64,000 bases of DNA from NCBI GenBank assembly GCA_044356295.1, contig JBIKWN010000005.1, positions 7,176 to 71,175 on the forward strand. Direction: 5' to 3'. The notes under the pieces were generated by a model, which ran no database searches, was not told the origin of the DNA, and saw only the letters and a list, made by a program, of their open reading frames with translations. Every line of letters begins with the position of its first letter. Position 1 is the first letter of the stretch. A program made the position numbers and the translations under genes. Source of the stretch: Bdellovibrionota bacterium. GTDB lineage: Bacteria > Bdellovibrionota_C > UBA2361 > JBIKWN01. This document shows positions 12,559 through 58,630 of this stretch, piece after piece.

Positions 12559-12576
12559 AAAAAGTCGGATTTTTTC

Positions 12577-14794: not shown

Positions 14795-14888
14795 TTTCTA
14801 AATAATAGTTTGATACCACACATCTCTAGCTAATAACCGGCACGCCTATTGCATTTTATAGTTCTGACACCCTTTTTGCGTCAAAAAA

Positions 14889-16016: not shown

Positions 16017-16051
16017 TTATACTAAAATGGTAACAGGGATGTAACAATTGT

Positions 16052-18142: not shown

Positions 18143-18184
18143 CGATAGACCGCGAGATTTATAGGTTTACAAGGGATTATACAG

Positions 18185-19165: not shown

Positions 19166-19249
19166 CAGTTAGGGGTAAGGAAAAAGTGTACAAAAATGTA
19201 CATAAAATCCTTGAAAAATCAGTAATTTGAATAATCAAAGAGAAAGCCA

Positions 19250-20212: not shown

Positions 20213-20218
20213 CGGACA

Positions 20219-20455
20219 GTGGCTGAGACCAAGCGGGTCATCAAACGAGTAAGCTTTGTATTTATGCAAAAGCTTGCCGCGGCAGTTTCGCTCCTTGCTT
20301 TAGTAGTAACTACTTTGGCAGGGATTATGGGAGGCGCAAGGATCATCACCATTACCTACCGAGCAGCACTGGTGATCGTTGTCGTCGGAACACTGACTAG
20401 GATCATTATTAAGATTCTAGAAAGTTATGAGGAGATGAATAGTGGTAAAGGCTAA
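20219..20455 (+). CDS. Small hydrophobic hypothetical protein
   Basis: 78-aa ORF with two predicted TM segments, packed between flhG and fliA. The coding call is weak. Confidence 0.3.
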   Translation: MAETKRVIKRVSFVFMQKLAAAVSLLALVVTTLAGIMGGARIITITYRAALVIVVVGTLTRIIIKILESYEEMNSGKG

Positions 20456-21197
20456 AAAATCGGCAGCAGAAGCATACAAAGTAAACACCCCAGATCCACA
20501 AGACCGTGAGGAATTGATTCGTCAATACTTGCCACTTGTGAAGCGAGTTGTACATCGACTTTCTGGAAGACTACCTAAGGATATCGACATTCGAGAGATG
20601 TTGAACTCTGGTATTATTGGGTTGGTGGATGCACTGGAAAAATACGATCCAAAACATGAAACAAATTTTGCAACGTATGCACAGTTTCGAATTCGTGGTG
20701 CAATCTTAGATAGTTTCCGATCACAGGATTGGTTACCAAGATCGCTTCGATTCAAGTCTCATAAATTAGAACAAGCATATCAACGTATAGAACAAAAACT
20801 TGGGCGTCCCGCTACTGATGAAGAAGTTTCAATAGAGTTAGGAATTCCGATTGAAGAATTACAAAGTATGCTCAGCGAAGTTGGAAGCATTGTAATGCTT
20901 TCCTTTGAAGAGCTAGGATTTGGTCACGGTGAAGAACGATTCCAAGCTGACGATGTTGTCGCAAGTAAAGGACAAGATCCATTAGGACAAATTCTTGGAG
21001 CTGAAAAAATTAGTTTAATTGCTCGTGCACTTGATAGATTACCTGAAAAAGAGCGACTGGTTATAAGCCTTTATTTCTATGAAGAACTAAACTTGAAAGA
21101 GATTGGTGAAATTCTTGGAGTAACTGAGTCACGAGCATCACAAGTTCGTTCACGTGGATTAATTCGTCTTAAAAACTATCTTAAACACGCAATGTAA
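20442..21197 (+). CDS. fliA: Flagellar sigma factor FliA (sigma-28)
   Basis: Sigma-70 regions 2 and 4 (YLPLVKRVVHR..., region 4 LKEIGEILGVTESRASQVRSRGLIRLK). The size and context match sigma-28. Confidence 0.85.
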   Translation: MVKAKKSAAEAYKVNTPDPQDREELIRQYLPLVKRVVHRLSGRLPKDIDIREMLNSGIIGLVDALEKYDPKHETNFATYAQFRIRGAILDSFRSQDWLPRSLRFKSHKLEQAYQRIEQKLGRPATDEEVSIELGIPIEELQSMLSEVGSIVMLSFEELGFGHGEERFQADDVVASKGQDPLGQILGAEKISLIARALDRLPEKERLVISLYFYEELNLKEIGEILGVTESRASQVRSRGLIRLKNYLKHAM

Positions 21198-44972: not shown

Positions 44973-45059
44973 TTTTTTGTAACGCGAAGGTCGCGAAGTA
45001 CGCGAAGGAATTAAATGTAATCCTTCGCGTACTTCGCGACCTTCGCGTTACAAAAAAAA
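44973..45059. repeat. About 85-bp near-perfect palindromic repeat element, copy 1
   Basis: TTTTTT-gtaacgcgaaggtcgcgaagtacgcgaaggaatta-aatgt-aatccttcgcgtacttcgcgaccttcgcgttac-AAAAAAAA. The arms differ by a single unpaired base. It occupies the 120-bp gap between the convergent Snf2 gene and the CitE-like gene. Near-identical copies lie at 51463-51549 and 53714-53800. Confidence 0.9.
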
Positions 45060-45061
45060 TA

Positions 45062-46009
45062 CTACCCAACCCGCTTCAAAACATTCCAGTAATACCGAAA
45101 TGAAGCCCGATCATGAAGTCTATCTTTATAAGAAATAGGTGCCCATTGAGCATTCTTAGCAAGAGTGAGGATCTCTTTAGCAGTATCTACTTCCTCAGCG
45201 CTTGGAGACATTGCGTTTAGTATAGGTTGAATCTGATTTGGATGAATACTCCACATACGAAGGAATCCAAAATGATGTCTTGCTCGAAGTGCGTCATCAT
45301 ATGCAGAGTCTGGATTTTTATAATCTACGGTAACATTGTGAGCAGGGATAATATTATTTCCAAGGCACGCCGCAACAAGACGGCTTTTTGCCCTCATCAG
45401 GATTGGATGCTCGAACTGTTCAGGACTTTGAAAACATTTATCTGATAATGCACCGTGATGGAATGAAACAAAATCCATACAACCAAAATCTAAACCTCTA
45501 AGGAGCGGAAGCGAAGCAATCTGCCATACTTCTTCGACAGCTTTTGGTGTTTCGATAAGAAAATGAATCGGTGGAATTGATACTTTACTCGTATCGCATT
45601 CTTTTTTGTAAGTATCGATAACAGTATCAATAACTTTCTGTCCTTGTTCAAAAGACAAAATTTTTGGAATTGTAAGATGAGAGATAATACCAAAAAGATT
45701 TTTTGCTACAAAATTTAGGTCATCACTAAAATGAGAAGATAGGGGATCATGAATTCTAACCCCAATTTTTTTATAAACATTTTCAGAAGAAGAAATAATG
45801 TTTAAAAAAAGTTGTCTCAACGCAGTTTCTTGTCCTACTGAAGCTCCATCTTCAAGATCACAGGTAATATCGAAACTACCTTTGAAGATCTTTTGCGTTT
45901 CAATACTTTTTAAAATTAATTTTTCATGACCTGCATAATGATCACATGCAGAGCATGAAGGAAGTGGTTTTTCATTTGGAAAAAGTATTGAATCAAGATT
46001 TTCAAACAT
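45062..46009 (-). CDS. HpcH/HpaI aldolase / citrate lyase beta-subunit (CitE)-like protein
   Basis: The C-terminal FGFLRMWSIHPNQIQPI matches the CitE/malyl-CoA-lyase WxIHPxQ motif; the rest of the fold is not independently verified. Confidence 0.55.
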   Translation of the reverse strand: MFENLDSILFPNEKPLPSCSACDHYAGHEKLILKSIETQKIFKGSFDITCDLEDGASVGQETALRQLFLNIISSSENVYKKIGVRIHDPLSSHFSDDLNFVAKNLFGIISHLTIPKILSFEQGQKVIDTVIDTYKKECDTSKVSIPPIHFLIETPKAVEEVWQIASLPLLRGLDFGCMDFVSFHHGALSDKCFQSPEQFEHPILMRAKSRLVAACLGNNIIPAHNVTVDYKNPDSAYDDALRARHHFGFLRMWSIHPNQIQPILNAMSPSAEEVDTAKEILTLAKNAQWAPISYKDRLHDRASFRYYWNVLKRVG

Positions 46010-46552: not shown

Positions 46553-46629
<77 letters not shown>

Positions 46630-46692
46630 TTCGACATCGCCGCCATTAGCGGCTTGCTCATGGCAAGTCATTCTTCGGCGAGGAGAATGGCG

Positions 46693-46713
46693 CCCTGAGC
46701 CCTGAGCCCTGAG
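46693..46713. repeat. Tandem heptamer (CCCTGAG)x3 inside a GC-rich 110-nt patch immediately 3' of tRNA-Asp
   Basis: cgccctgagccctgagccctgagcg, followed by aagggagtcgaagggaggg (AAGGGAG x2). The local GC is far above the window average. Confidence 0.8.
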
Positions 46714-46863
46714 CGACCAAAGGGAGTCGAAGGGAGGGCTGGTTTCATGCTGTCAGCCATTTTGAATCAGCTCAGTATTATTTGTCTCCCGATACCAGAC
46801 ACAATCAAAACATATATTTGTTTACTATACTGAATTGTATTAGCCTATTTTAAGGCAGTCTCA

Positions 46864-47802
46864 GTGATAAAAGTAGTTGATAATAGTTGCGATCTTTCGG
46901 ATTTGTATGGTCCCGACATTGGTTTTGCATGTGCACATCCTGAAATGACAGGCCTTGTCCCATATCCTAGTAAAACTTCTGAAACATCTGAAAACCAACC
47001 TGGAATTCTTTTCGAACCAAAGATTGAAGTACGTCGCTGTTTAATGATAGGCGATTCATTTAACAGAATTGCTTCAGAACCTGGATGTATCGATAGATAT
47101 CTGCATCACCGGTTTCAGATTGAGGGAACAGACTTTGATCAATTAGCGTTAGCCCTTGCCGGTGATCATCAAAGATCTCCATTCAATAATAAGAATCTCG
47201 CTGAAATTATTTCGCCCTTATCTCAAATTTCTGCAGAGGGTCAGGGTTGGATAAAAAATCAAGCAGGGTTTCGAAATGCAGTAGGAAGATCTTACTGTGT
47301 TAAACAATTGAGTAAAGTATGTGGGGATTTAGATTCAGAAATTCAAGAATATTGTAATGCACTATCTACAGTTGCAAATGAAAATGATTTTTTAATGATT
47401 CTTATTGATGGATCAAGACTTTCAAATCAATCGCAAGCAGTAAATCCTCGGCCAATCAGAAACTATCAACAGTTGTTAGCAAATTTAAATGCAATTCCAG
47501 GATGGAAGTGTATTTTCGATCTGTCCCTAGAGTGTGGCAATTTAGCAAATGCTCACATGGAAGATATTGCAAAAAAATCAATCGAGATGGACCGCACTGC
47601 AGTGCTAACGAGTGTTGCCTATCAACAAGAGCCAACATCAATGCATACACAAACTATATGGGACTACCTTGTGAATACAATTTTATTTGGAAGGAGCCTA
47701 AAAGAGATTCGTTTAGCTCCATTAATTAGTGAAAATGCAGCCTCACCCAAAGCAGTGCCACTTATTCCACAGATACGTTCGAATTACTCTGTCGCGTTGT
47801 GA
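46864..47802 (+). CDS. Hypothetical protein (possible GDSx-type hydrolase)
   Basis: 312-aa ORF. The only motif-like feature is LMIGDSFNRIA (GDS-x block) near residue 60. The stop codon runs directly into a copy of the 22-bp motif. Confidence 0.4.
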   Translation: MIKVVDNSCDLSDLYGPDIGFACAHPEMTGLVPYPSKTSETSENQPGILFEPKIEVRRCLMIGDSFNRIASEPGCIDRYLHHRFQIEGTDFDQLALALAGDHQRSPFNNKNLAEIISPLSQISAEGQGWIKNQAGFRNAVGRSYCVKQLSKVCGDLDSEIQEYCNALSTVANENDFLMILIDGSRLSNQSQAVNPRPIRNYQQLLANLNAIPGWKCIFDLSLECGNLANAHMEDIAKKSIEMDRTAVLTSVAYQQEPTSMHTQTIWDYLVNTILFGRSLKEIRLAPLISENAASPKAVPLIPQIRSNYSVAL

Positions 47803-47897
47803 TAGGGGATGCTCACCTTTATTAATGCATTGAATTTGTTCAAATTTAATTTTAATTGTGCTTAAATTTAAAAATATATATATATATAATCATATAT

Positions 47898-48263
47898 ATG
47901 AATAACAATTTGAATATACTGAAAAAAATTGCTACGAAAAGTCTAAAAACTGAAAAAAGTAGAAAAATCCCTGTGTATCTTAAACTTGAGGAAGACGTAG
48001 TAAACTGGTTCAAGAATGAAGGTAAGGGGTATCAAGAAAGAATTAATTCGCTACTTAAGGATTATGTCAGCGAAGTAGTCATGGCAACTACGACAAAAGT
48101 TTCTAATGCACAGAACCTATTCGAAAAATATTATTCACAATGTTTCTGGCATTTGCGAAGAGATATCGTTATTAAAGAAGAGCATATTCCACTGATCATA
48201 GAAGGGCTTAAAAAACATGGTGGACAACAAGGTTATCTAGAGTCACAAATCTTATGCCAGTAA
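47898..48263 (+). CDS. BrnA-antitoxin-like (ribbon-helix-helix, DUF4415-type) domain protein with a 60-aa C-terminal extension
   Basis: KSRKIPVYLKLEEDVVNWFKNEGKGYQERINSLLKDYV matches the BrnA signature (...R-L/I-D-x-D-V-L-x-W-F-K...G-x-G-Y-Q-T-R-I-N-x-x-L-R-x-Y). The start is taken at the ATG at 47898, after an (AT)n tract; the track ORF begins at a TTG at 47856. Confidence 0.55.
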   Translation: MNNNLNILKKIATKSLKTEKSRKIPVYLKLEEDVVNWFKNEGKGYQERINSLLKDYVSEVVMATTTKVSNAQNLFEKYYSQCFWHLRRDIVIKEEHIPLIIEGLKKHGGQQGYLESQILCQ

Positions 48264-48660
48264 CAAAATTTCAAAAAAAATTCTTAAACTTTTGTCACAA
48301 AACCGAAGCCCCGATAGCTATGTTGCAGGGCTGCATGTGGTAAAGATCCAGGATTTACCCCTGAATTAATTCTTGATTGCATAAGCCGAAATGCTCGATT
48401 AACACCCGATATACTCGCTTTAGAAAATCTTACTTCAGCTATAGATCCAAAAAAAATTAAGATGCAATGGATGGAATCTTTTCAAAGAGCTCAATTAGAG
48501 ATTTCTAAATATCCCATTGATTCAATCGGATCACTTTTTCTCGATAAGCAAGGCAATACAGTTCATCGACCGAAAGATTTCTCAAATTTAATAGTTCATA
48601 AAGGTAGTGTAAGGGGTAGCTGGCCCTTTTCTGAGAGCGTGTAGGAGACGCTCACTATCA

Positions 48661-49824
48661 TCAGAGAGATCGAATTAATTTGAAAAATTCTTGGTATGGC
48701 AATATCTCTACATCATTTATTTTTCTTGATCTTTCAGCAGTACAAACACAGATTTTTTTCACTTTTTGGTTAATTAATCTAATAGCATTAAAACCAGCTT
48801 CATAATCAAGTTCAATCGGAGTATCTTTGGATTTTATTTCTACTGCAATCATTTCACCTGAAGGCGTTGTAATTATTAAATCAACTTCTACATCTGCCGC
48901 TGTTCTTAGAAATGAAAGTGAAAGATCTTTACGAAGATAGTGCGAAATTCTTACTACCTCATTGATAACCCATGTTTCAAAATAGTTACCATACTCGAAT
49001 GTTTGAGGGCGAATATCAGTATTGAGGCGTTTTTGAAGTGAACGAAGTACGCCAGTATCAAAAAAGTAAAATTTGGGAGAAGTTTTAAATTTCTTCCTTT
49101 CAGAATGATTCAAAGCAGGAAGGAATCTGCCTAAAAGTGTATCTTCAAGGATTTTAAAATATTCTTTAACCGTTACTGAAGAAAGAAGAACATCGCGGGC
49201 TATGTTAGAAAAATTTATTTGTTCGCCGTTACATTGTGCCGCAACTTCCAGAAATCTAATAAAGCCTCCTATATTTCTTGAAAGAGCTTCAGCTTCGATT
49301 TCTTGTTGAAGATACATTTGAGTATAGGCTCTTAGATTTTCTTTTGCAGAATCTTTATCAGTTAAAATATTTGCTGGAAGTGTTCCAGTAGAAAGAATTT
49401 GATTTAATGTAACTGGCTTTGGTACTTCTAAGAAGGTGAGGGGGAATAATTCAAAGCTCCAAGCCCTACCGCCAAGTAAATTGGCACGCCCTCTTTTTAA
49501 TTTTCTTGCACTTGAACCCGTTAGGATAAACTTTTGAGGAACTCCTTTATCAATTAAATACTGGACTTCATTTAATAGATCTGGAACCCGCTGCGCTTCA
49601 TCAATCAATACATGAGAGATTTTTTCAGATAAGGCCCAAACTTCCTCTCTTAAGCGGTCAGGTTTAGAGACAAACTGGGAATAGGTCTCAGTTTGAAGTA
49701 AATTAATTTCAGCAAGTTCTTCACTTTTAAAAGAATTTCTAATCAACGTAGTTTTTCCAGATTGTCTGGCTCCGAATAGGAAAAAACTGTTAGATTTTGG
49801 TATGTTAAGTTCTCTTTTAAGCAT
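48661..49824 (-). CDS. AAA-family ATPase of the COG1373/DUF4143 type
   Basis: Walker A GARQSGKTTLI near the N-terminus, Walker B LIDEAQRV, and a C-terminal DUF4143-like region. The gene is AT-rich (about 30-35% GC in sampled stretches). Confidence 0.7.
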   Translation of the reverse strand: MLKRELNIPKSNSFFLFGARQSGKTTLIRNSFKSEELAEINLLQTETYSQFVSKPDRLREEVWALSEKISHVLIDEAQRVPDLLNEVQYLIDKGVPQKFILTGSSARKLKRGRANLLGGRAWSFELFPLTFLEVPKPVTLNQILSTGTLPANILTDKDSAKENLRAYTQMYLQQEIEAEALSRNIGGFIRFLEVAAQCNGEQINFSNIARDVLLSSVTVKEYFKILEDTLLGRFLPALNHSERKKFKTSPKFYFFDTGVLRSLQKRLNTDIRPQTFEYGNYFETWVINEVVRISHYLRKDLSLSFLRTAADVEVDLIITTPSGEMIAVEIKSKDTPIELDYEAGFNAIRLINQKVKKICVCTAERSRKINDVEILPYQEFFKLIRSL

Positions 49825-49932
49825 GCTTTAAATATCCGTTGAATAATTAAAGCATACTTTTACTTAAAGACAAATCCCCAATCTAAGATATCAATCAGGT
49901 TGATGCATCAGTGTTTGCATAAGGAACAAACC

Positions 49933-51249
49933 ATGAAAGCTCGAATAGTCATCTGGCTTGGGTACGGTGATGAAGGGAAAGGGTCTTGGGTTGATTACTT
50001 GGTAAGAAAACACCAGGTCACTCAAGTTGTGCGATTCAATGGAGGTGCGCAAGCACTACACCATGTGGTGACGCTCGAGGGGCTTACCCACGGATTCGCA
50101 CAATTTTCCTCTGGTACTTTGGTGCCGGGGGTTAAGACCCTCCTTTCCAAATTCATGTTGATTGAGCCAGAGAGTTTTTTTGCAGAGGCAGAGATGCTTT
50201 CCGCAAAAGGAATCGCTGATGTTGTTGAAAGAGTTATTATCAGTGAGAAATCACCGGTGATCACTCCTTTCAACAGATTACTCAATCGAATCATGGAGCG
50301 CTTTCGTGGAATAGAACGCCATGGAAGTTGCGGATTTGGAATCGGACTTACTCAAGCAGATGTAGAGTCGCTCAAAGATCGAGCACTCTATGTCAAAGAT
50401 CTATCGTCATCTTCGACACTTCGGTCAAAGTTAAATGATCTGTGGAGTTTGAAATTAGATTTTGCTGATCGATTCAGAAATGAATCGACTGAAGATCTGT
50501 TTCATGCACTGCAGAACATTGACATTGAACGATATGTTGAACTGTTCACACGGTTCGCTGAAGCGGTAAACGTTGTCAGCGAAGAGGAATTTCAAAAACT
50601 GCTTCGTGAAAACGAATCAGTCTTTGAAGGTGCACAGGGTGTTATGCTCGACCAAACGTATGGAACATTTCCGTTCTGCACGAGGTCGAATACGACATTC
50701 GAAAATGCATTGATGCTTCTTCGTGAAGCTGGGTGGCAGGGTACTATTGAGAGAATTGGACTTTTGAGGGCGTATGGAACCAGGCACGGTGCTGGTCCAT
50801 TCCCAACAGAAGACTCTTCACTCAACGTAGTACCTTGTCTTAATCAACTCAATGAATGGCAGGGGCAGTTCCGAACAGGATGGTTTGATGCAGTGTTAGC
50901 GCGCTATGCACTTGAATGTGTAGGCGATGTTGATACGTTAGTCATCACCAACTTTGATCGAATTGTTTCAGAACAAACTCTCCAGATCGCAGTTCGATAT
51001 GGCAGAGTGAGTGATAGTCGTTTCTTTCGTGACGGACAGATGATTCCTTTTACGGGGGGTCTTCAAGAACTTGCGGAACGAACGACAATGCTAGCCGAAG
51101 TGGAACCTGACTATCTTGATGGTGGAGTCTATTCGCAAAACGATCCTGATTCGGTAAATCGATATCTGAAGCTCCTTGAAAAGAGTATCGGACGTCGAAT
51201 TAACACTGTGTCATCAAGTATCGATTGCAAAAAGATAGAGTTCGATTGA
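49933..51249 (+). CDS. Divergent adenylosuccinate synthetase (PurA)-family protein
   Basis: P-loop GYGDEGKGS (canonical QWGDEGKGK); [14 protein letters not shown] against PurA [39 protein letters not shown] against [41 protein letters not shown] against [23 protein letters not shown] against RRTGWLD. GC is about 50% in sampled stretches, against about 40% for the neighbouring genes. The start is taken at 49933 (AAGGAA ribosome-binding site 7 nt upstream). Confidence 0.65.
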   Translation: [438 protein letters not shown]

Positions 51250-51462
51250 TGAGATCAATTTGGCTTTATTCTTTGTATTCTTCATCAAAAAGGGAGGGGT
51301 TCTTAGCGACGGTTCTTCATTTGAGTTTATGGGATGCACTCGAGATTACTGCAAAGGTTTAAAAGTCAAAGCAGCTCTCAAAGCATCCCCTACCTTTCAG
51401 GGGACGCTCACCATAACTTATTAAAATTTCATCACCGCGGTCTGGTAGGAGTTTAACTATTA

Positions 51463-51549
51463 TTTTTTTTTGTAACGCGAAGGACACGAAGTACGCGAAG
51501 GAATTAATTTAATCCTTCGCGTACTTCGCGACCTTCGCGTTACAAAAAA
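51463..51549. repeat. About 85-bp palindromic repeat element, copy 2
   Basis: TTTTTTTTT-gtaacgcgaaggacacgaagtacgcgaaggaattaa-ttt-aatccttcgcgtacttcgcgaccttcgcgttac-AAAAAA. It carries the same two left-arm mismatches as copy 3. Confidence 0.9.
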
Positions 51550-51605
51550 TATCTTCAATTACTTTCTACCGAGCAATAGTGACCTTTAGGGGACAGTGAC
51601 CTTTA

Positions 51606-51696
51606 GGGGACGCTCACCTTTATAAGCCACTGTAATCACTTGGTAGGAATAAATTATCTCTAAAGATTTCAAACAGTTATAAAGGTGAGCGTCCCC
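51606..51696. repeat. Inverted pair of the 20-bp motif GGGGACGCTCACCTTTATAA separated by 51 bp
   Basis: ggggacgctcacctttataa at 51606-51625 and its exact reverse complement ttataaaggtgagcgtcccc at 51677-51696. A tandem partial copy (gtgacctttaggggaca) lies immediately upstream, at 51579-51595. Confidence 0.85.
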
Positions 51697-51706
51697 AAGA
51701 TTCTGA

Positions 51707-51734
51707 TTAACTTTTTGGGCTAAGTAGTCGATCT
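51707..51734 (+). promoter_or_regulatory. Candidate sigma-28 (FliA)-type promoter for the flagellin gene
   Basis: TTAACTTTT-N11-GTCGATCT against the consensus TAAAGTTT-N11-GCCGATAA. It lies about 95 nt upstream of the flagellin ATG and immediately after the inverted-repeat element. Confidence 0.35.
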
Positions 51735-51828
51735 TACGTGTGATGAGAACCCTTTAAGGGGGATCTTGCGCCTGTGGCGTATTTAAAGAGTGTGTGTGTA
51801 AAAAATGCAAAAGGAATTGCAAACATAA

Positions 51829-53685
51829 ATGCCAATCACGATCGCTAGCAACATAGCGTCGCTTGGTGCGCAACGACAACTTGGAAAAGTTTCCGAGTCG
51901 TTAGGTAGTACCTACGAGAGGCTCTCATCAGGAATGAGAATTAATAAAGCATCAGATGATGCTGCAGGGCTCGCAATTGCTTTAAGTCTGAATTCAGATA
52001 CAAGAGTATTTACTCAAGCGGTAAGAAACTTAAATGATGGTATATCGTATCTATCAATCGCTTCTGGAGCACTTGATGCCCTTTCAACTATAGTCATTAG
52101 GCAGAAAGAATTAGCAGAGCAATCTGCAAATGGAACTGTTGGCCTCACGCAACGAAAAAGTATTCAACAAGAGTCAGATGCATTAACAAGAGAATATGCT
52201 CGTATTACTGCAACTGCTACGTTTAATAATCGAAAAATATACGAAGATAATTCCAATAACTTACTATCGTTACAAACAGCCTATAGTGCGATTACATATA
52301 ATCTTGGGCAGTCTCTTGCTGATTATCGTGGTGATGGGACTTTCTCGAGTGGGACAACTGTGGATAGTGCTACATTTTTGGGGCAAGTAGTAATTGCGGA
52401 CCTCAATAATGATGGGAAACAAGATATTATACAGGTCAGAGGTACTGGTGGAAATTTAAGGTATCAACTCGGAAATGGTGATGGAACTTTCCAAAGTGTC
52501 ATTCAGCTTAGCACTGGAAATAGTCCAATTTCAGTATTAGTTGATGATTATAATAAAGATGGTTTCAAAGATTTTGCGATAGTAAATTCACAAGGTAATC
52601 TGCGTGTTGCTTTACAAAATAGCAATGGAACTTTTGGAACTTTTGTTACTTATCAAGGTCCACTTGGAGCAAACACCATGCAGTTAACATCTGGTGATTT
52701 TGATGGTGATGGTATTACTGATCTTTTTTATCAACACGGAAGTTTTACAAGTTGGGTCTTAAGAGGAAATAGTGATGGTAGCTTTCAAGCCCCAGTGACT
52801 GCAGCTAGCACCCTTTTTAATAGTACCGTAAAAGTTGCTGATTTTAATAACGATGGAAAATCTGATTTAGTTTCGATTACATCTGGAACACTAAGAACAT
52901 TTACTTCGAATGGTGATGGCACATTCGCAGTAGGCGCAACAATCTTCTCTGGAATTACCGGTTCAGTTACAGCAGATGTAGGTGATTTTAACCGAGATGG
53001 AATTCAAGATATTGTTTATTCAGATACCACATCTGGGAGGGTATATCTTGCCATTGGTAATGCAAATGGAACTTTTCAAGCTTCTATATCATTCACATCT
53101 TCAGGTGCAAACCCAGGCTCCATAACGACTGGGGATTATAATGGAGATGGATTAGCAGACATAAGTTATCTCACAACTGGTTCAACATCGTTAAGTATTC
53201 GTTTAGGTAATGGTGACGGTAGTTTTCGGGCAGAGACATCATCAGCAATAAGTACTAATGGATCATTTGCTTTTGGGGATGTAAATAATGATGGCTCTGT
53301 TGATCTTGTTTCAGTGAGATCCGATTCCAATTCTAGTGCTCTGTATCTGCAAGGCACACGAACAGAATTTCAAGCAGACTATTTATATCTTTTAGACCAA
53401 AAGAGTGCCCGAAATGCCATCGATCAACTTGAAACAATTTTTAATAAAATTTCTCAAGAACGTTCAATAGTCGGTGCTTCTCTTTCTAGAATTTCAGTCG
53501 GTATACAGACGCTGTCGGATGCAGCGCTACAGTATAAAGCTGCTGAATCAAGGATAAGAGATATTGATGTTGCAGAAGAATCATCAGAACTTACGAAACA
53601 ATCAATTCGCCAACAAGTTGCTGCTTCGATTCTTGGACAAGCTAATCAGCAGCCATCTTTGGCGCTTAGCCTCTTACGATCTTAA
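51829..53685 (+). CDS. Flagellin with a seven-repeat FG-GAP (integrin-alpha-like beta-propeller) insertion in the variable central region
   Basis: The N-terminal D0/D1 region MPITIASNIASLGAQRQLGKVSESLGSTYERLSSGMRINKASDDAAGLAIA... and the C-terminal D1/D0 region ...LSRISVGIQTLSDAALQYKAAESRIRDIDVAEESSELTKQSIRQQVAASILGQANQQPSLALSLL are classical flagellin. Between them are seven D-x-N-x-DG-x-x-D repeats (ADLNNDGKQD, DDYNKDGFKD, SGDFDGDGITD, ADFNNDGKSD, GDFNRDGIQD, GDYNGDGLAD, GDVNNDGSVD), each followed by Gly/Thr/Phe-rich strands. Confidence 0.8.
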   Translation: MPITIASNIASLGAQRQLGKVSESLGSTYERLSSGMRINKASDDAAGLAIALSLNSDTRVFTQAVRNLNDGISYLSIASGALDALSTIVIRQKELAEQSANGTVGLTQRKSIQQESDALTREYARITATATFNNRKIYEDNSNNLLSLQTAYSAITYNLGQSLADYRGDGTFSSGTTVDSATFLGQVVIADLNNDGKQDIIQVRGTGGNLRYQLGNGDGTFQSVIQLSTGNSPISVLVDDYNKDGFKDFAIVNSQGNLRVALQNSNGTFGTFVTYQGPLGANTMQLTSGDFDGDGITDLFYQHGSFTSWVLRGNSDGSFQAPVTAASTLFNSTVKVADFNNDGKSDLVSITSGTLRTFTSNGDGTFAVGATIFSGITGSVTADVGDFNRDGIQDIVYSDTTSGRVYLAIGNANGTFQASISFTSSGANPGSITTGDYNGDGLADISYLTTGSTSLSIRLGNGDGSFRAETSSAISTNGSFAFGDVNNDGSVDLVSVRSDSNSSALYLQGTRTEFQADYLYLLDQKSARNAIDQLETIFNKISQERSIVGASLSRISVGIQTLSDAALQYKAAESRIRDIDVAEESSELTKQSIRQQVAASILGQANQQPSLALSLLRS

Positions 53686-53713
53686 GGGGGACGCTCAGAT
53701 TTTATAACTTTTA

Positions 53714-53800
53714 TTTTTTTTTGTAACGCGAAGGACACGAAGTACGCGAAGGAATTAATTTAATCCTTCGCGTACTTCGCGACCTTCACGTTACAAAAAA
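53714..53800. repeat. About 85-bp palindromic repeat element, copy 3
   Basis: TTTTTTTTT-gtaacgcgaaggacacgaagtacgcgaaggaattaa-ttt-aatccttcgcgtacttcgcgaccttcacgttac-AAAAAA, followed by tatcttcaattatttc as in copy 2. Confidence 0.9.
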
Positions 53801-53840
53801 TATCTTCAATTATTTCTAGCATCAATCAGCCAAATATGTT

Positions 53841-55862
53841 TTACCCGGTAAAAGTATAAACAATTTCAAGTGACATCGGATCTAAAAGAGCCCTCATCCA
53901 ATCGGGTTGTTTCTCAATCTGCATATTTAAATAATCGATAGATTCTTTCTTGGCCGGTAGTCCTTTGCGCAATCTATATCTCTGTTCCGCGGCTAACGGC
54001 TTATTACCATCAACCAGTACATTTGACAGAGTTCTTCGAAACTGTGAAACCATGTCACTAGTACACCATGCTTGACCATGTGGTAAAAATATTGAGGCTG
54101 CTGCTGGTTCGAAGCAAGCTTCGGATAATAAAATTTTTAGTTGAGATATTTCAAAAAGATTTAAATGAGATTCCCCCAGTATTGGACCATGTAAGACTCC
54201 TGATTTATGAAATAGATCGTATGTTAGTATTTCGAAAATCTTTTTAATTTTTCTTGGATCTATATTGCTGGATTCATCTGTGTTACGTTGCATAGCAATT
54301 CCTAAAGCTATCACCAGTAATCTACGATGAGCAGAAAGTGTTATCTCACTGTCTTGAATAAGGCGTTTATACCAACTGGTATTATGAAAGAAACACGAGG
54401 GGTCTAGTTTTTCGATAACATTTGAAGATAGATCGCCTAATTGTACATACTTTTCAATCAGCTTGCGTGCATGTCGAAACCCTAAATCTCCTTTACTACG
54501 ATTTACAATTTGATCTGCGGCAAATGGTGAAACGTCAAATAAACTTTGTGCATATTGTAAAGGAGTAGGTGGGTTATCCTTATACTCGACAGCAGACATT
54601 ATAGTTAGTGTACTTACCCGTTGGCCAAGTTCAAGATTTGAATCTGAAGCAATATCTGGTGGAAGAAAACATAGTAAGCTTTCTGAAATATTTTGACTAA
54701 CGACACCAAGTTTAGATATACAAAATTGTGTTGATTGTAGTTTGCCTTGAACAGATATATGGCTTGAGCCAAGCAAGATACTTTCGGCGTGCTTAATAGT
54801 TTTCAAACCAAAAAGTCGAAGTATAATCTCAGTATCTTTGAATCCACAAAATTCCTGGATTTCTTTTCTGAAAAGCGCGCATGCACTTCTTCTTGCCCGA
54901 GAAAGAGCCAGGCGTTTAGGATCTAAATATAATTTCTCACTAGGATTTGGATTAAGTAATACGACCATTTTGTGAGCAAATGGATGAAATGCTACTTGGT
55001 TTAAATACCTTTCGAGACGGCTGGGGCTTAAGCTTTTGTGACCATAGATTATATCTCGTGCTGAACCAAATGTTAATTCAAAGCGAAGTGCAACTTCTCG
55101 AATTGCTGAGGCAAGCTTTGGGGCATTATTACCATTAAAATGTCTATAAACTTCGAATGCAAATTCTTTCCTTAGCTCAACAATATCAGAAGGTAATTGC
55201 GAGGTAGAGTATTTTTTTGGTGATGATGGTTTGGTAGGAAAGGTTTGAGGAATGCTTTGTGAGAAAATTTTAGCAAAGGTGTATCGAGCTTCCTTATCGC
55301 TACTCTCCAGCAGTTGAAGCGATAAATTAGTTTCAAACAGATCAATTACCTCTTCACTTGAACGACTGTTACTTATACGACGACGAACTCTTGAAAGACG
55401 TGATTTATATTGAGTTAGATTTATATTTAAATGAAATGCTCCTTCTTCATCCGAAAAACCAATAATATCTAGAAAAAGAACATTTTGATCGAGCGGGTTA
55501 TGTATCCCAAGTGAGGCTAAAGTTTCACGTACAAGAGCATAATGTTCTCTGTTAAAATCAAAATTAGAAGTAGATGCATGTTTGGAACTAATTGGTTCGA
55601 TTGAATCCGGAGCATCCAACTCGATTGCATGTCGTGTTCTTTTTCTCTTTTCCCCCCTATGTTTATCAATCCCAATACTTTGGAAAGTACGAATCACTAA
55701 ACCAGTTGCTGAGCCACCATCTTTAACTTCATGCCCATTGAGCTTAAGCCACGCTTCACCTAAAGCATCCTCAGCATCTCGTAAGGGTACACCCGCCCTT
55801 ATTAAAGATTGGATACGCTTATTTCCTGAACGGAGTAACTCTTCGGCGATATCTTCTTGCAT
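53841..55862 (-). CDS. Large hypothetical protein (673 aa) with a weak sigma-70 region-2-like N-terminus
   Basis: Long ORF. The N-terminal LIRAGVPLRDAEDALGEAWLKL loosely resembles the ECF-sigma region 2 pattern (AEDLxQExFLK). The remainder is unrecognised. Confidence 0.4.
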   Translation of the reverse strand: MQEDIAEELLRSGNKRIQSLIRAGVPLRDAEDALGEAWLKLNGHEVKDGGSATGLVIRTFQSIGIDKHRGEKRKRTRHAIELDAPDSIEPISSKHASTSNFDFNREHYALVRETLASLGIHNPLDQNVLFLDIIGFSDEEGAFHLNINLTQYKSRLSRVRRRISNSRSSEEVIDLFETNLSLQLLESSDKEARYTFAKIFSQSIPQTFPTKPSSPKKYSTSQLPSDIVELRKEFAFEVYRHFNGNNAPKLASAIREVALRFELTFGSARDIIYGHKSLSPSRLERYLNQVAFHPFAHKMVVLLNPNPSEKLYLDPKRLALSRARRSACALFRKEIQEFCGFKDTEIILRLFGLKTIKHAESILLGSSHISVQGKLQSTQFCISKLGVVSQNISESLLCFLPPDIASDSNLELGQRVSTLTIMSAVEYKDNPPTPLQYAQSLFDVSPFAADQIVNRSKGDLGFRHARKLIEKYVQLGDLSSNVIEKLDPSCFFHNTSWYKRLIQDSEITLSAHRRLLVIALGIAMQRNTDESSNIDPRKIKKIFEILTYDLFHKSGVLHGPILGESHLNLFEISQLKILLSEACFEPAAASIFLPHGQAWCTSDMVSQFRRTLSNVLVDGNKPLAAEQRYRLRKGLPAKKESIDYLNMQIEKQPDWMRALLDPMSLEIVYTFTG

Positions 55863-56013
55863 TCAAAAAACTAAGTAAAAATACGTTAATTGATAGAGAG
55901 ATTTATATCAGAAGAATTATCCTTAACATAAAAAAAGAGAAAAAAATTGATTTATCACCAATTATCTTTGCGCTTTTGCTTGAGTAAGACTCAATGTACT
56001 CTATCTAGAAATC

Positions 56014-56919
56014 ATGGCCCAATCACTCAGTCTTATCCCACAGCTCCTCATCAATGGCCTTATTACAGGTAGTATCTATGCTTTAGCAGCTGCTGGTTTG
56101 ACGCTGACTTATGTCTCGTTTCGAGTGCTCAATTTTGCACACGGAGCATTAGTCATGATTGGAGCATATTTATTTTATGCAGTTTTTATTCTTCGAGACG
56201 TAACATCACTTCTGCCCATAGTTCTTTTTCTACTCATAAGTGGTTTTATACTGTCTAGGTTTATTGATAGATGTTTTATAGCCCCATTTTCCAAAGTTCA
56301 TCCGATTCTTCCTTTTGTTTCAACACTTGCATTGGCGATATTAACTGAAGCAAGTGTTTCAATGATTTTTGGAGTCAATGTTCTTTCTCTTTCTACAGAG
56401 ATGAGTGATCTGATAGTTCTTCCTTTAGATCTCTCACTCACTGTTATGCAAGGATACTTTGTTGTTGTGAGTTTAATGACTCTTTGTGCTTTAGCACTCT
56501 ACTTAAACAAAAGTCTCTTTGGAAAACAGTTACTTGCACTTGCAGAATCACCAACGTATTTAGCTTCACTTGGTATATCTATTGACAACCGTCGAAGCGT
56601 TACTTTTTTTCTCGCTGTTGTTTTAGCATTTTTTGCCGGAATATTTTTAGGATTCGAAACAAATCTGCAACCAATGATGGGAAGCTCCATTATGATTAAA
56701 GCATTTGCCGCAATGGTATTGGGCGGTATGACTTCCCTGAGTGGAGCAATATTTGGAGCGTATCTCTTAGCAATTATTGAATCGTTAATGATCGGGTTAG
56801 ATTTCGGAGCATTCTCGGTGCCTGCAAGTTACAGAGACAGTATATCGTTGGTCTTTGTTATGTTTATTTTGTTAGTAAGACCACAGGGATTATTCTCAAA
56901 AAGGGGACGTGCTGCCTAA
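56014..56919 (+). CDS. livH: ABC transporter permease, branched-chain amino acid (LivH/HAAT) family
   Basis: Polytopic membrane protein with LivH-like N-terminal ...LINGLITGSIYALAAAGLTLTYVSFRVLNFAHG. Confidence 0.75.
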   Translation: MAQSLSLIPQLLINGLITGSIYALAAAGLTLTYVSFRVLNFAHGALVMIGAYLFYAVFILRDVTSLLPIVLFLLISGFILSRFIDRCFIAPFSKVHPILPFVSTLALAILTEASVSMIFGVNVLSLSTEMSDLIVLPLDLSLTVMQGYFVVVSLMTLCALALYLNKSLFGKQLLALAESPTYLASLGISIDNRRSVTFFLAVVLAFFAGIFLGFETNLQPMMGSSIMIKAFAAMVLGGMTSLSGAIFGAYLLAIIESLMIGLDFGAFSVPASYRDSISLVFVMFILLVRPQGLFSKRGRAA

Positions 56920-57791
56920 TGAATCCTTATCATACCCACATTCTTATATTGATAGAGATCTATGTTATTTTGTCTCTTGGACTTCAGATTGTTTTGGGTT
57001 GGGGAGGTTTGTTTAACCTTGCTCACATAGGACTGTTTGGAGTCGGTGCATATGTGGTGGCAGTTTTGACTACAGATTTTGCAATTTCACCGTGGACGGC
57101 ACTGATGCTAGCGCCAATTGGTGCTGTTGTGATGATGTATCCAATTTATTTAGTTAGTTTGAGATTAAAATCAGATTATTTTGCTATTGGCAGTCTTGCT
57201 CTTTCACTCTGTATTTCTAGTATCTTTATTAACTGGTCATCAGTGACCCACGGTGTACTTGGAATTGCCGGTATTCCGCGAATGAAGATCTTTGGTGTAA
57301 CCACTGATGAAGATCTCTTTTTTTTAATTGTTCTCAGTGTTGTGACTTTAGCTTTTATAATTTTTTCTTTAATACTAAAGTCTTCGCCATTCGGAAAATT
57401 TCTTCTCGCTCAAGCAGAATTTGAACATGCTGTCGATGCGTTAGGTGTTAGTGCAGCAAAGATGCGATCGATTGCATGTATATTGAGCGCAATTTATGCT
57501 GGAACTGCTGGTGGGTTCTTTGCGATGTATTTATCTTTTATTGACCCAACCTCATTTTCACTCTCAGAGATGGTATTTATCCTTTCAATTGTAATTTTAG
57601 CTGGACTTTTTTCGGTATGGTCAGTGATTGGGGCCACTATATTTTTAGTAGTACTACCCGAAGCACTACGGTTACCTGAAATGCCTTCATCAATTCTTGG
57701 ACCAGGGCGCCAATTTTTGTATGCAATGACTTTGTATTTAGTAGTGCTGGTTCGTGGAAAAAAAATATTCATAGCTCGGCGGGAAGTATAA
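56919..57791 (+). CDS. livM: ABC transporter permease, LivM-like
   Basis: Second polytopic permease. Its start overlaps the livH stop, and it has a LivM-like GWGGLFNLAHIGLFGVGAYV segment. Confidence 0.7.
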   Translation: MNPYHTHILILIEIYVILSLGLQIVLGWGGLFNLAHIGLFGVGAYVVAVLTTDFAISPWTALMLAPIGAVVMMYPIYLVSLRLKSDYFAIGSLALSLCISSIFINWSSVTHGVLGIAGIPRMKIFGVTTDEDLFFLIVLSVVTLAFIIFSLILKSSPFGKFLLAQAEFEHAVDALGVSAAKMRSIACILSAIYAGTAGGFFAMYLSFIDPTSFSLSEMVFILSIVILAGLFSVWSVIGATIFLVVLPEALRLPEMPSSILGPGRQFLYAMTLYLVVLVRGKKIFIARREV

Positions 57792-57797
57792 AACGAT

Positions 57798-58529
57798 ATG
57801 TTACGCTTAGATAGTATTGAGGTCTCTTTTGGTCAAACGAAAATTCTTCGAGGAATTTCAACTAGTTTTACTTCAACTACCGGTATCATTGGTCCGAATG
57901 GATCAGGAAAGACTACACTTTTTAATGCAATTTCGGGTTTTGTTCCAACGTTGAAAGGATCAATTAGAATTAATGATGATGAGCTTGTTGGTAAAACACC
58001 AGATGCAAGAGCAAGAATGGGACTCGGTCGAGTATTCCAAAATTTTGGAATTTTTCGAGAGCTTACTGTTATTGAAAATGTAAATCTTGCTCTGAGTGCA
58101 AAAGAGTCAATATGGAGGACTTTTATTCCTTCACCATCCCATTCAAGAAAAATTGAAAGTCATTCCGAATCATTTTTAGAAGCCGTCGGAATAGTTGAAA
58201 AACGAAATGAAAAAGCTGCAAATCTTTCAGGAGGTCAAATGAGACTTCTAGAAATTGCAAGAGCGTTAGCGATGGATGCTTCTGTTTATTTATTAGATGA
58301 GCCCACAGCTGGAGTTTCTCCGAAATTAAAAACAGAGGTAGCTCGCGCGATTAAGCTTCTTATAGATGCAAAAAAAACAGTTCTTATCATTGAACATGAT
58401 ATGTCCTTTATTAGGCAGTTTGTTGACCGAATCATTGTGCTTGATCAGGGACAGATTGTAGCAGATGGAGAGCCTGAAACAGTGACAGCTGATCCTAAAG
58501 TTCAAGAGATTTACTTTGGTAAGTCCTAA
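57798..58529 (+). CDS. livG: ABC transporter ATP-binding protein (LivG/LivF-like)
   Basis: Walker A GPNGSGKTT; ABC signature LSGGQMRLLEIARAL; Walker B YLLDEPTAG; H-loop. Confidence 0.85.
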   Translation: MLRLDSIEVSFGQTKILRGISTSFTSTTGIIGPNGSGKTTLFNAISGFVPTLKGSIRINDDELVGKTPDARARMGLGRVFQNFGIFRELTVIENVNLALSAKESIWRTFIPSPSHSRKIESHSESFLEAVGIVEKRNEKAANLSGGQMRLLEIARALAMDASVYLLDEPTAGVSPKLKTEVARAIKLLIDAKKTVLIIEHDMSFIRQFVDRIIVLDQGQIVADGEPETVTADPKVQEIYFGKS

Positions 58530-58630
58530 GTATTCCGTGCCCAAAGTTCGCTAAAACCCCTTAGATTTGCATGAGAAAATAATCAAGTTTAGACTCTTCA
58601 GTAACAGTCTTTATCCTGTGGAGCTATATT

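What the first reader, a model, noticed from the sequence alone, without database searches (positions are those of the whole stretch)
51452..53820. Flagellin gene bracketed by about 120-bp direct repeats (palindrome copies 2 and 3 plus shared flanks)
Copies 2 and 3 of the palindrome are in the same orientation and share their idiosyncratic mismatches (ggacacgaag in the left arm). Their similarity also extends into the flanks (tttaactattatttttttttt against tataacttttattttttttt on the left; aaaaaatatcttcaattactttc against aaaaaatatcttcaattatttc on the right). This gives roughly 120-bp direct repeats 2.25 kb apart that precisely enclose the FG-GAP flagellin gene and its promoter region. Such a configuration permits RecA-mediated excision or duplication of the flagellin cassette, or it marks the footprint of a cassette insertion. 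Either way it points to a phase- or copy-number-variable flagellin.
Basis: seen in the sequence. Interest (0 to 1): 0.6.

Follow-up and report, generated by a model that had tools for sequence, protein, structure and literature searches.

The report
Flagellin gene between twin palindromic repeats
A flagellin gene really is flanked by two near-identical 115-bp repeats, but they are cargo-less copies of a hairpin element that in many bacterial phyla surrounds small selfish "GxxExxY" nuclease genes, and nothing indicates a flagellin on/off switch.

Summary
Window 51454-51568 and 53705-53818 are direct repeats (115/114 nt, 2 substitutions, 1 indel, 2251 bp apart). They enclose a 618-aa FG-GAP flagellin ORF (51829-53685) and its upstream region. 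Each repeat contains an 84-nt near-perfect palindrome whose arms are three tandem 9-nt ACGCGAAGG units. A third, more diverged copy in the opposite orientation lies at 44973-45057, behind an unrelated gene.

The palindrome belongs to a class found across phyla. Arms of the same build flank or bracket GxxExxY (PD-(D/E)XK, PF13366) genes in 10-11 of 14 loci chosen without reference to the repeat. Most pattern-selected hits are gene-less hairpins like these. I found no description of this class in the literature library.

The flagellin has native GC and codon usage. No recombinase is encoded in the 64 kb. The arrangement recurs with identical gene spacing in a second contig, and two unitigs from a public sequencing run match it exactly.

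The repeats could support rare RecA-dependent deletion or amplification. The shared non-palindromic flanks do point to a real duplication or insertion event. A phase- or copy-number-variable flagellin is not supported, and it cannot be tested without long reads or close relatives, of which none exist in the databases.

The parts
51454..51568 (+). Left direct repeat (115 nt): 12-nt flank, palindrome copy 2 (51466-51549, T-run + GTAAC + 3 x 9-nt ACGCGAAGG units, 11-nt AT loop, inverse arm, A-run), then 19-nt flank. It lies 205 nt after the purA stop codon.
   Evidence: RNA fold -56.6 kcal/mol, z = -13.9.
53705..53818 (+). Right direct repeat (114 nt) holding palindrome copy 3 (53717-53800). It starts 20 nt after the flagellin stop codon and ends 22 nt before the stop codon of the convergent 673-aa gene.
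   Evidence: RNA fold -51.2 kcal/mol, z = -11.3. Logan unitigs L001 and L042 end inside it.
44973..45057 (-). Palindrome copy 1: 37-bp perfect stem, in the opposite orientation to copies 2 and 3. It lies between the convergent SNF2-helicase gene (42218-44938 +) and the HpcH-like gene (45062-46009 -).
   Evidence: RNA fold -69.6 kcal/mol, z = -18.1.
51829..53685 (+). Flagellin ORF (618 aa): Flagellin_N, a seven-repeat FG-GAP region (a beta-propeller is expected but was not modelled) in place of the variable domain, and Flagellin_C.
   Evidence: Hundreds of homologues of about 620 aa at about 40% identity. Native GC and codon usage.
51708..51734 (+). Candidate sigma-28-type promoter, TAACTTTT-N11-GTCGATCT, about 95 nt upstream of the ATG and inside the bracketed segment.
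   Evidence: Read from the sequence. The loose pattern gives 2 matches against 0.49 expected, which is weak. A FliA-like sigma factor is encoded at 20442-21197.
51606..51696 (.). Second, unrelated hairpin. Its arms are 20-nt perfect copies of GGGGACGCTCACCTTTATAA, 51 nt apart, between repeat copy 2 and the promoter.
   Evidence: (I4).
51578..51622 (+). 17-nt tandem repeat x 2.6 (AGTGACCTTTAGGGGAC) that runs into the left arm of the second hairpin.
53687..53697 (+). Solo GGGGACGCTCA motif 1 nt after the flagellin stop codon. Further solo copies lie at 51400-51410, 47805-47824 (2 nt after a stop codon) and 48644-48654 (overlapping the last base of the TAG stop codon).
49900..51249 (+). Upstream neighbour: adenylosuccinate synthetase (purA).
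53841..55862 (-). Downstream convergent neighbour: 673-aa protein with no Pfam match and a weak ECF-sigma-like N-terminus.

Best explanation
The two 115-bp direct repeats are sister copies of a short, cargo-less palindromic element. The element is an 84-nt hairpin whose arms are three tandem 9-nt ACGCGAAGG units preceded by a T-run and GTAAC.

The element belongs to a class seen in many phyla, whose arms normally flank or bracket small GxxExxY (PD-(D/E)XK) genes wedged between housekeeping genes. That association is shown here. In this genome the gene-less hairpins occupy spacers at gene 3' ends: behind purA, behind the flagellin gene and behind an SNF2 helicase gene.

The following steps are inferred:
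- One hairpin, together with 12 + 19 nt of its flank, was duplicated locally to the other side of the flagellin transcription unit. This happened either by copy-paste of the spacer or as the footprint of recombination that placed the 2.1-kb segment there.
- The bracket is a by-product of that event, not a dedicated switch.
- When transcribed, each copy forms a 37-42-bp duplex with no 3' U-tract. It therefore most likely acts, if at all, as an RNase III or exonuclease boundary that insulates the flagellin transcript from purA read-through and from the convergent gene. This is the way 23S rRNA intervening-sequence stems and Neisseria Correia hairpins behave.
- The flagellin is a resident gene, probably sigma-28 dependent.
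- The repeats can support only rare, unprogrammed RecA-dependent deletion or amplification.
For: Anatomy:
- Repeat structure and extent.
- Strong hairpins, -51 to -70 kcal/mol, z = -11 to -18.
- No Rfam family.

Class membership:
- A 21-specified-base arm pattern hit 13 genome and 16 metagenome stretches. About 23 of these loci are distinct. The identifiable taxa are Verrucomicrobia, Acidobacteria, Cyanobacteria, Chloroflexi, Gemmatimonadota and Alphaproteobacteria.
- About 13 of the distinct loci are gene-less hairpins, 6 are solo arms and 3 are chance coding matches.
- In the other 2, the arms enclose a GxxExxY gene. L004 scores E = 1.8e-41 to TIGR04256. L009 scores E = 1.3e-73 against a small model that was built from L004 and L009 themselves, so that score is circular; it carries the GPGMLESAY motif, and its homologues carry PF13366.
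- Unbiased test: of 14 GxxExxY loci found by protein search, 10 have flanking repeats made of three tandem 9-nt units, and 1 has a direct-repeat variant. The Sphingomonas locus has the same CGCGAAGG unit and a T-run.
- In L048 and L051 the gene sits between two complete hairpins in direct orientation, the same geometry as here.
- In L007 two gene-less hairpins bracket an M48 peptidase gene.

Not a switch:
- No recombinase in the 64 kb.
- Native composition of the flagellin.
- Same arrangement in a second contig and in two unitigs from an independent run.
- No flagellin pseudogene remnant upstream.
- A distant FG-GAP flagellin locus (L015) has no bracketing repeats.
- No canonical terminator at the hairpins. 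An A-run follows the stem on both strands.
Against: - Only three copies were seen, all within 9 kb of a 64-kb window. Genome-wide abundance and the presence of any GxxExxY gene in this organism are unknown. None is in the window.
- The 97% identity, including loop and non-palindromic flank, is far higher than between the bracketing hairpins elsewhere, which align with many mismatches and gaps (L007 and L051; unrelated loops in L048). The pair is therefore a recent, specific duplication whose mechanism I cannot show.
- That pattern is equally what an insertion footprint would look like.
- RNase III processing and an insulating role are inferred by analogy only.
- Population heterogeneity was not testable.
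Confidence: 0.55

Rival explanations
1. Insertion footprint. The 2136-bp segment (second hairpin, promoter, flagellin gene, 20-nt tail) entered a pre-existing purA-[hairpin]-673-aa-gene spacer. This could have happened by Campbell-type recombination of a circle carrying its own copy of the hairpin spacer, or by staggered cleavage at the base of the extruded cruciform followed by fill-in. Either route duplicates the hairpin plus a few flank bases. On this reading the flagellin was once a mobile cassette.
For: - The direct repeats include 12 + 19 nt of non-palindromic flank and an identical loop, none of which copy 1 shares. A symmetric element inserting twice would not give that.
- The right repeat fills almost the whole spacer between two convergent stop codons.
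- If the 30-nt insert with the TAACTWWTTA duplication at 51414/51454 is discounted, homology begins at GGGGACGCTCA, directly after the flagellin stop codon.
- GxxExxY genes also occur between two complete hairpins in direct orientation (L048 and L051).
- The flagellin lies 30 kb from the flagellar export cluster, between housekeeping genes.
Against: - The flagellin's GC, GC3 and codon usage are indistinguishable from the rest of the window, so any transfer was old or came from a close relative.
- In L048 the two bracketing hairpins have unrelated loops, so they are not a duplicated target.
- No empty site is available, because the nearest purA homologue is only 55% identical.
- No enzyme for such a reaction is encoded nearby.
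Confidence: 0.25
2. Active variation. RecA-mediated recombination between the repeats deletes or amplifies the flagellin unit at a biologically meaningful frequency, giving phase or copy-number variation of this flagellin.
For: The repeats are direct, 2251 bp apart, with a 77-nt perfect block. They enclose exactly one transcription unit. Surface antigens are frequent targets of variation (general knowledge).
Against: - No evidence of alternative junctions. One JGI contig has identical gene spacing, and two unitigs from a public run match the window exactly, although short-read graphs could not reveal a minority form.
- No site-specific recombinase in the window.
- Deletion would be irreversible, so it is not a switch.
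- Hairpins of the same class bracket unrelated genes elsewhere (L007).
- 115-bp repeats 2 kb apart recombine rarely in model bacteria (general knowledge).
Confidence: 0.08
3. The 115-nt unit, not the 84-nt palindrome, is the mobile element. On this reading it is an asymmetric subfamily that inserted independently on both sides of the flagellin gene, and copy 1 is an older, diverged member.
For: Aligned in inverted orientation, copy 1 keeps some flank similarity (TAGTA against TATTA; T..CTT.A; 7/12 and 5/10 positions). All three copies lie within 9 kb, as local hopping would give.
Against: The flank similarity to copy 1 is near what AT-rich sequence gives by chance and drops to 2/9 beyond 10 nt. 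No target-site duplication is visible. With only three copies the element boundary cannot be defined.
Confidence: 0.1
4. Integron-type gene cassette, with the palindromes acting as attC sites.
For: The palindromes are imperfect, about 85 nt long, and sit at the 3' end of ORFs. The ends GTAAC...GTTAC faintly recall RYYYAAC...GTTRRRY.
Against: The core sites do not fit: TTGTAAC is not RYYYAAC, and GTTACAA is not GTTRRRY. No IntI or other tyrosine recombinase is encoded in the window. The hairpin class is tied to GxxExxY genes, not to integrons.
Confidence: 0.01

Closest known systems
Inverted repeats around GxxExxY genes (TIGR04256 / PF13366 PDDEXK_3). The protein family is catalogued, but I found no description of its flanking repeats.
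   Same: The arm architecture is the same: a T-rich run, then (T)TAAC(C), then three tandem 9-nt RCRNAGGN units and an inverted partner. The CGCGAAGG unit is identical in Sphingomonas L039 and in L048. The location is intergenic between housekeeping genes.
   Different: The window copies carry no gene, only an 11-nt loop. No GxxExxY ORF exists in the 64 kb. Here the bracketed gene is a flagellin with its own promoter.
23S rRNA intervening sequences (IVS) of Coxiella, Leptospira and Salmonella (PMC4990558)
   Same: A selfish insert bounded by terminal inverted repeats that form a long stem in the transcript. There are forms with a small ORF in the loop and short ORF-less forms. The stem is cut by RNase III, which makes the insertion tolerable.
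   Different: The IVS sits inside rRNA genes, and its ORF is a four-helix-bundle S23p (PF05635), not a PD-(D/E)XK protein. Nine-nt tandem units are not reported for it. RNase III cleavage was not tested here.
Co-transcribed palindromic MITE/REP-type elements: Neisseria Correia/NEMIS, Yersinia ERIC/IRU, enterobacterial REP/BIME (from my own knowledge)
   Same: Short dispersed palindromes in intergenic spacers that fold in mRNA. They affect processing or stability, and as dispersed repeats they serve as substrates for homologous rearrangement.
   Different: Those families are restricted to a genus or family, whereas this architecture recurs across phyla. No TA or other target duplication is visible. 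No RAYT or transposase was seen.
Flagellin phase variation: the Salmonella Hin/hix inversion switch (from my own knowledge)
   Same: Repeats flank a flagellin-related segment.
   Different: hix sites are 26-bp inverted repeats flanking a promoter with an adjacent recombinase gene. Here the repeats are direct, 115 bp long and palindromic, enclose the whole gene, and no recombinase is encoded nearby.

Membership tests
GxxExxY-associated hairpin class (3 x 9-nt units), as defined from the loci studied here | Each arm is about three tandem 9-nt units of the form RCRNAGGN | tested here: met
   TRF reports period 9, 3.1 copies, consensus ACGCGAAGG in the left arm of all three copies; the right arms give 2.6-2.9 copies of the complementary unit.
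GxxExxY-associated hairpin class (3 x 9-nt units), as defined from the loci studied here | The outer end of the arm is (T)TAAC(C) or TTCACC after a T-rich run, and an inverted partner arm forms a hairpin | tested here: met
   TTTTTTGTAACGCG...CGCGTTACAAAAAA, with 37-42-bp stems. Compare L005, L012, L039, L043 and L048.
GxxExxY-associated hairpin class (3 x 9-nt units), as defined from the loci studied here | A GxxExxY (PF13366) gene lies between or next to the arms | tested here: not met
   hmmsearch of all window ORFs of 70 aa or more found none. The copies are gene-less, as are about 13 of the roughly 23 distinct pattern-selected loci.
GxxExxY-associated hairpin class (3 x 9-nt units), as defined from the loci studied here | GxxExxY genes with matching arms occur elsewhere in the same genome | not testable with these tools
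   Only this window is available. The organism is absent from the genome and metagenome DNA collections.
REP / REPIN-RAYT | A short imperfect palindrome with a conserved 5' tetranucleotide, tens to hundreds of copies per genome, and a cognate RAYT (Y1 transposase) gene | tested here: inconclusive
   There are 3 copies in 64 kb, and no Y1 transposase among the scanned ORFs. The rest of the genome was not seen.
MITE | Terminal inverted repeats plus a direct target-site duplication | tested here: not met
   The whole element is an inverted repeat, but the flanking T-run and A-run are complementary, not direct. No short direct duplication flanks any copy.
Integron attC / gene cassette | R''(RYYYAAC) and R'(GTTRRRY) core sites, and an IntI integrase with attI | tested here: not met
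   TTGTAAC and GTTACAA violate both consensus sequences. No integrase is in the window.
Intrinsic (Rho-independent) terminator | A GC-rich stem followed by a 3' U-tract | tested here: not met
   The scan reports no terminator at the palindromes. The stem is preceded by T6-9 and followed by A6-8 on both strands.
Site-specific flagellar phase-variation switch (Hin/hix type) | Short inverted recombination sites flanking a promoter, and an adjacent serine or tyrosine recombinase | tested here: not met
   The repeats are direct. No recombinase domain was found in any scanned ORF of the window.
23S rRNA intervening sequence | Insertion within a 23S or 16S rRNA helix | tested here: not met
   There is no rRNA in the window. 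The only Rfam gathering-level match is tRNA-Asp.
23S rRNA intervening sequence | The terminal-repeat stem is cleaved by RNase III | not testable with these tools
Bacterial flagellin | N-terminal and C-terminal helical D0/D1 regions (PF00669 + PF00700) | tested here: met
   Flagellin_N at E = 1.1e-30 and Flagellin_C at E = 5.2e-16, with 7 FG-GAP_3 stretches between them.

The most novel reading that the evidence does not exclude
Hairpins of this class would not be just debris. They would be the insertion or recombination sites of an undescribed cassette system found across phyla. A cruciform- or hairpin-specific activity, plausibly the GxxExxY PD-(D/E)XK nuclease acting in trans, would place DNA next to or into a hairpin and duplicate it. 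Genes other than GxxExxY, here a complete flagellin transcription unit, could then be captured and moved as hairpin-bounded cassettes.
Probability: 0.05. Interest if true: 0.85.

Novelty: new variant of a known kind. Interest (0 to 1): 0.4.

Why it matters
For the flagellin itself the result is sobering. The bracket is best read as a by-product of a repeat family, so it should not be scored as a variation system without read-level evidence.

The useful outcome is the identity of the repeat. A hairpin built from three tandem 9-nt units recurs in Acidobacteria, Cyanobacteria, Bacteroidota, Planctomycetota, Proteobacteria, Gemmatimonadota, Chloroflexi and this Bdellovibrionota-like MAG. It is tightly linked to the very abundant but functionally unknown GxxExxY nuclease genes.

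That link gives a concrete handle on what GxxExxY proteins act on. It may help explain why those genes so often sit on contigs shorter than 2 kb. It also flags these hairpins as a recognisable feature in genome annotation.

Tried and rejected
- Rfam, at gathering thresholds and at E <= 5, gave only generic miRNA-hairpin noise.
- Literature searches for the arm sequences, GxxExxY, PF13366 and FG-GAP flagellins found nothing describing the repeats.
- The strict palindrome pattern gave 0 hits in JGI metagenome contigs, and the looser arm pattern gave 0 in IMG/VR. A GxxExxY search of IMG/VR confirmed no relatives. blastn of copy 1 against plasmids gave no match.
- Close relatives for an empty-site test do not exist. 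The best purA homologue is 55% identical, and the best full-length flagellin homologues are about 38-44% identical.
- A distant FG-GAP flagellin locus has no bracketing repeats.
- I looked for a flagellin pseudogene remnant upstream of the left repeat, as a tandem-paralogue model would predict. tblastn with 121 flagellins found nothing credible.
- An excess of G.T over A.C mismatches in the stems (24 against 7) looked like evidence for RNA-level selection. I reject it because the search pattern fixes G in one arm, which is an ascertainment bias.
- The sigma-28 promoter call rests on a loose consensus match that is not statistically compelling.
- Two look-ups failed because the start codon was called differently.
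- An assembly artefact is rejected, because two unitigs from an independent public run match the window exactly over the right-hand repeat and the flagellin gene.
Full report
**Observation.** The repeat finder gives a two-copy direct repeat, 51454-51564 against 53705-53815 (111 nt, 97%, spacing 2251). A gapped alignment extends it to 51454-51568 against 53705-53818. The differences are two substitutions (51459 A/T, 51537 G/A) and one single-base indel (51562), which leaves a 77-nt perfect block.

Each copy contains an 84-nt near-perfect palindrome, 51466-51549 and 53717-53800. A third palindrome lies at 44973-45057. These are the only long hairpins of this kind in the 64 kb. Their core is expected 0.00 times by chance.

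Copies 2 and 3 share the same two stem mismatches, the same loop, and 12 nt (left) plus 19 nt (right) of non-palindromic flank. Copy 1 has a perfect 37-bp stem. Judged by its asymmetric T/A runs and its loop, it is inverted relative to copies 2 and 3. It shares only 7/12 and 7/19 flank positions.

The enclosed ORF (51829-53685, 618 aa) is a flagellin with a seven-repeat FG-GAP insert.

**Anatomy of the locus.** The left repeat lies 205 nt after the purA stop codon. The right repeat starts 20 nt after the flagellin stop codon and ends 22 nt before the stop codon of a convergent 673-aa gene. Between the left repeat and the ATG lie:
- a 17-nt x 2.6 tandem repeat;
- a second, unrelated hairpin with 20-nt perfect arms, GGGGACGCTCACCTTTATAA (51606-51696);
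- a candidate sigma-28-type promoter at 51708-51734. I read this from the sequence, and its statistical support is weak.

The window also encodes a flagellar cluster at 7.2-21.2 kb: MotA, FliM, FliO, FliP, FliR, FlhB, FlhA, FlhF-like and FlhG-like proteins, and a FliA-like sigma factor. The organism is therefore flagellated, and this flagellin is a stand-alone unit 30 kb away.

No integrase, invertase or transposase domain was found in any scanned ORF. By purA similarity the organism is a deep-branching Bdellovibrionota-like MAG. The best hit outside the same contig is 55% identical. That rules out an empty-site comparison.

**What the palindrome is.** Each arm is 3.1 copies of a 9-nt unit, ACGCGAAGG, preceded by a T-run and GTAAC. 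As RNA the three copies fold at -69.6, -56.6 and -51.2 kcal/mol, with z from -18 to -11. No Rfam family matches. The hairpins are not canonical terminators, because the stem is followed by an A-run on both strands.

A scan of 185,579 species genomes for 21 specified bases of the arm returned 13 stretches, and a JGI metagenome scan returned 16. About 23 of these loci are distinct. Three are coding coincidences. The rest are intergenic and all show a third unit upstream of the two the pattern demanded. Usually they also show an inverted partner arm. The source taxa are Verrucomicrobia, Terriglobales, Aridibacter, two cyanobacteria, Chloroflexi, Gemmatimonadaceae, Phenylobacterium and an unclassified MAG.

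In two of them the arms are 409 and 529 nt apart and enclose a small gene. Both genes are GxxExxY proteins of the PD-(D/E)XK superfamily. L004 scores E = 1.8e-41 to TIGR04256 and 1.8e-40 to PF13366. L009 carries the GPGMLESAY motif, and its homologues carry PF13366.

**Test of that association on loci not selected by the repeat.** Protein searches gave 8 GxxExxY loci on PLSDB replicons and 6 distinct loci from genomes and metagenomes.
- Ten of the 14 have flanking repeats made of three tandem 9-nt units. The units are CACAGAGGA in Bacteroides and a gammaproteobacterium, CGCAGAGG in Fuerstiella, Gemmatirosa, L051 and L052, CGCAAAGG in L046, and CGCGAAGG in Sphingomonas and L048.
- One, in Prevotella, has direct repeats with ACAAATCGN units.
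- Three lack them.

The genes are co-oriented with, and wedged between, housekeeping genes, for example fabD/fabG and thiG/a methyltransferase.

Two arrangements occur. In one the gene lies in the loop between the two arms. In the other the gene lies between two complete hairpins in direct orientation (L048 and L051). The second arrangement has the geometry seen around the flagellin.

In a Phenylobacterium MAG two gene-less hairpins of the class bracket an M48 peptidase gene. So these hairpins also flank unrelated genes.

I found no paper describing these repeats. PF13366 is listed as function unknown, with mixed clades indicating transfer (PMC3424549).

**Interpretation of the bracket.** The window palindromes meet the structural features of this class but carry no gene, and no GxxExxY ORF is present in the 64 kb. 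They are cargo-less members, like most pattern-selected hits.

What sets this pair apart is its similarity: 97% identity including loop and flank. Bracketing hairpins elsewhere align with many mismatches and gaps or have unrelated loops. This indicates a recent duplication of a segment of 115 nt or more.

Gene conversion between two independent insertions cannot explain the shared unique flanks. Either the hairpin spacer was copied to the other side of the gene, or the 2.1-kb segment was inserted by recombination at a pre-existing hairpin. I cannot discriminate between these.

Against recent foreign origin, the flagellin's GC (0.391), GC3 (0.221) and codon-usage distance (0.057) are typical of or better than the window average. 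No flagellin remnant lies upstream.

Against a programmed switch:
- the repeats are direct;
- deletion would be irreversible;
- there is no recombinase;
- the arrangement is identical in a 21-kb JGI contig, with spacings of 580 and 156 nt;
- Logan unitigs of SRR11638223 match the window without mismatch. L001 covers 51807-53740 and L042 covers 53758-60065.

Those unitigs end inside the repeat, as a k = 31 graph must. They carry no information on minority forms.

**Mechanism I commit to.** The repeats are selfish or neutral hairpin elements in 3' spacers. If they have a role, it is at the RNA level. A 37-42-bp duplex without a U-tract is a typical RNase III substrate or exonuclease barrier. That is the behaviour described for IVS stems (PMC4990558) and, from my own knowledge, for Correia and ERIC elements. 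Such a hairpin would separate the flagellin transcript from purA read-through and from the convergent gene. This step is inferred, not shown. Homologous recombination between the copies is possible in principle but unproven.

**Verdict.** The claim of a phase- or copy-number-variable flagellin is unsupported. The more interesting result is the identification of the palindrome as a gene-less member of a GxxExxY-associated hairpin class that spans phyla and is, as far as I could find, undescribed.

Noticed in passing
L004 6806-7277; L009 about 1980-2570; L034, L037, L039, L043, L046, L048, L049, L051, L052: GxxExxY (PF13366/TIGR04256) genes in many phyla are flanked or bracketed by inverted repeats built of three tandem 9-nt units. 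The unit sequence varies between taxa (CGCGAAGG, CGCAGAGG, CACAGAGG, CGCAAAGG). The genes are wedged, co-oriented, between housekeeping genes. I found no published description.
   Followed up: yes
window 51829-53685; proteins P0002-P0120: Flagellins of about 620 aa with a seven-repeat FG-GAP insert form a large family, with hundreds of metagenomic homologues at about 40% identity. Some contigs carry two paralogues. No paper on FG-GAP flagellins turned up in the library.
   Followed up: partly
window 47805-47824, 48644-48654, 51400-51410, 53687-53697; hairpin 51606-51696; tandem repeat 51578-51622: A second repeat family, GGGGAYGCTCAC(C)TTTAT. Its solo copies lie at or within 2 nt after stop codons of three different genes. 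A full inverted pair forms a 91-nt hairpin upstream of the flagellin promoter. Its function is unknown.
   Followed up: partly
window 51414-51463: TAACTTATTA and TAACTATTAT are separated by 30 nt. This looks like a 10-nt duplication around a small insert. Without it, the homology between the two flagellin-flanking regions would start at GGGGACGCTCA, directly after the flagellin stop codon.
   Followed up: no
L007 4497-4575 and 5612-5685: In a Phenylobacterium MAG two gene-less hairpins of the same class, which align with many mismatches and gaps, bracket an M48 peptidase gene. Each has an extra outer stem, CCGGCGAAGCCGG...CGGCTTCGCCG.
   Followed up: partly
window 7228-21197: A flagellar cluster encodes MotA, FliM, FliO, FliP, FliR, FlhB, FlhA, an SRP54-type FlhF-like GTPase, a MinD/ParA-type FlhG-like ATPase and a FliA-like sigma factor. 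A cation-efflux gene (13386-14291) sits between fliR and flhB.
   Followed up: partly
window 53841-55862 (-): This 673-aa protein has no Pfam match. Its N-terminal 28-166 residues weakly resemble ECF sigma factors (E = 3e-4). It is convergent with the flagellin gene.
   Followed up: no
window 49900-51249: purA is the compositional outlier of the region, with GC 0.447 and GC3 0.391 against window means of 0.382 and 0.275. The flagellin is not an outlier.
   Followed up: no
window 46553-49824: tRNA-Asp is followed by a (GCCCTGA) x 3.3 repeat. After it come island-like genes: a 312-aa unknown, a BrnA-like antitoxin preceded by an (AT)13 tract (47874-47899), a 60-aa ORF and an AAA_14/DUF4143 ATPase. 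All of these lie between palindrome copies 1 and 2, which are in inverted orientation 6.4 kb apart.
   Followed up: no
window 51790-51807; L001: The Logan unitig that carries the flagellin gene starts at 51807, immediately after a (GT)5A6 tract in the 5' UTR. This could be a graph branch from length variation or a coverage drop.
   Followed up: no
proteins P0242-P0360: A large share of GxxExxY proteins sit on contigs shorter than 2 kb. That is what repeat-flanked multi-copy elements breaking assemblies would give.
   Followed up: no
window 666-2233: Two tandem paralogous ORFs (250 and 248 aa, no Pfam match) share a 155-nt stretch at 74% identity.
   Followed up: no
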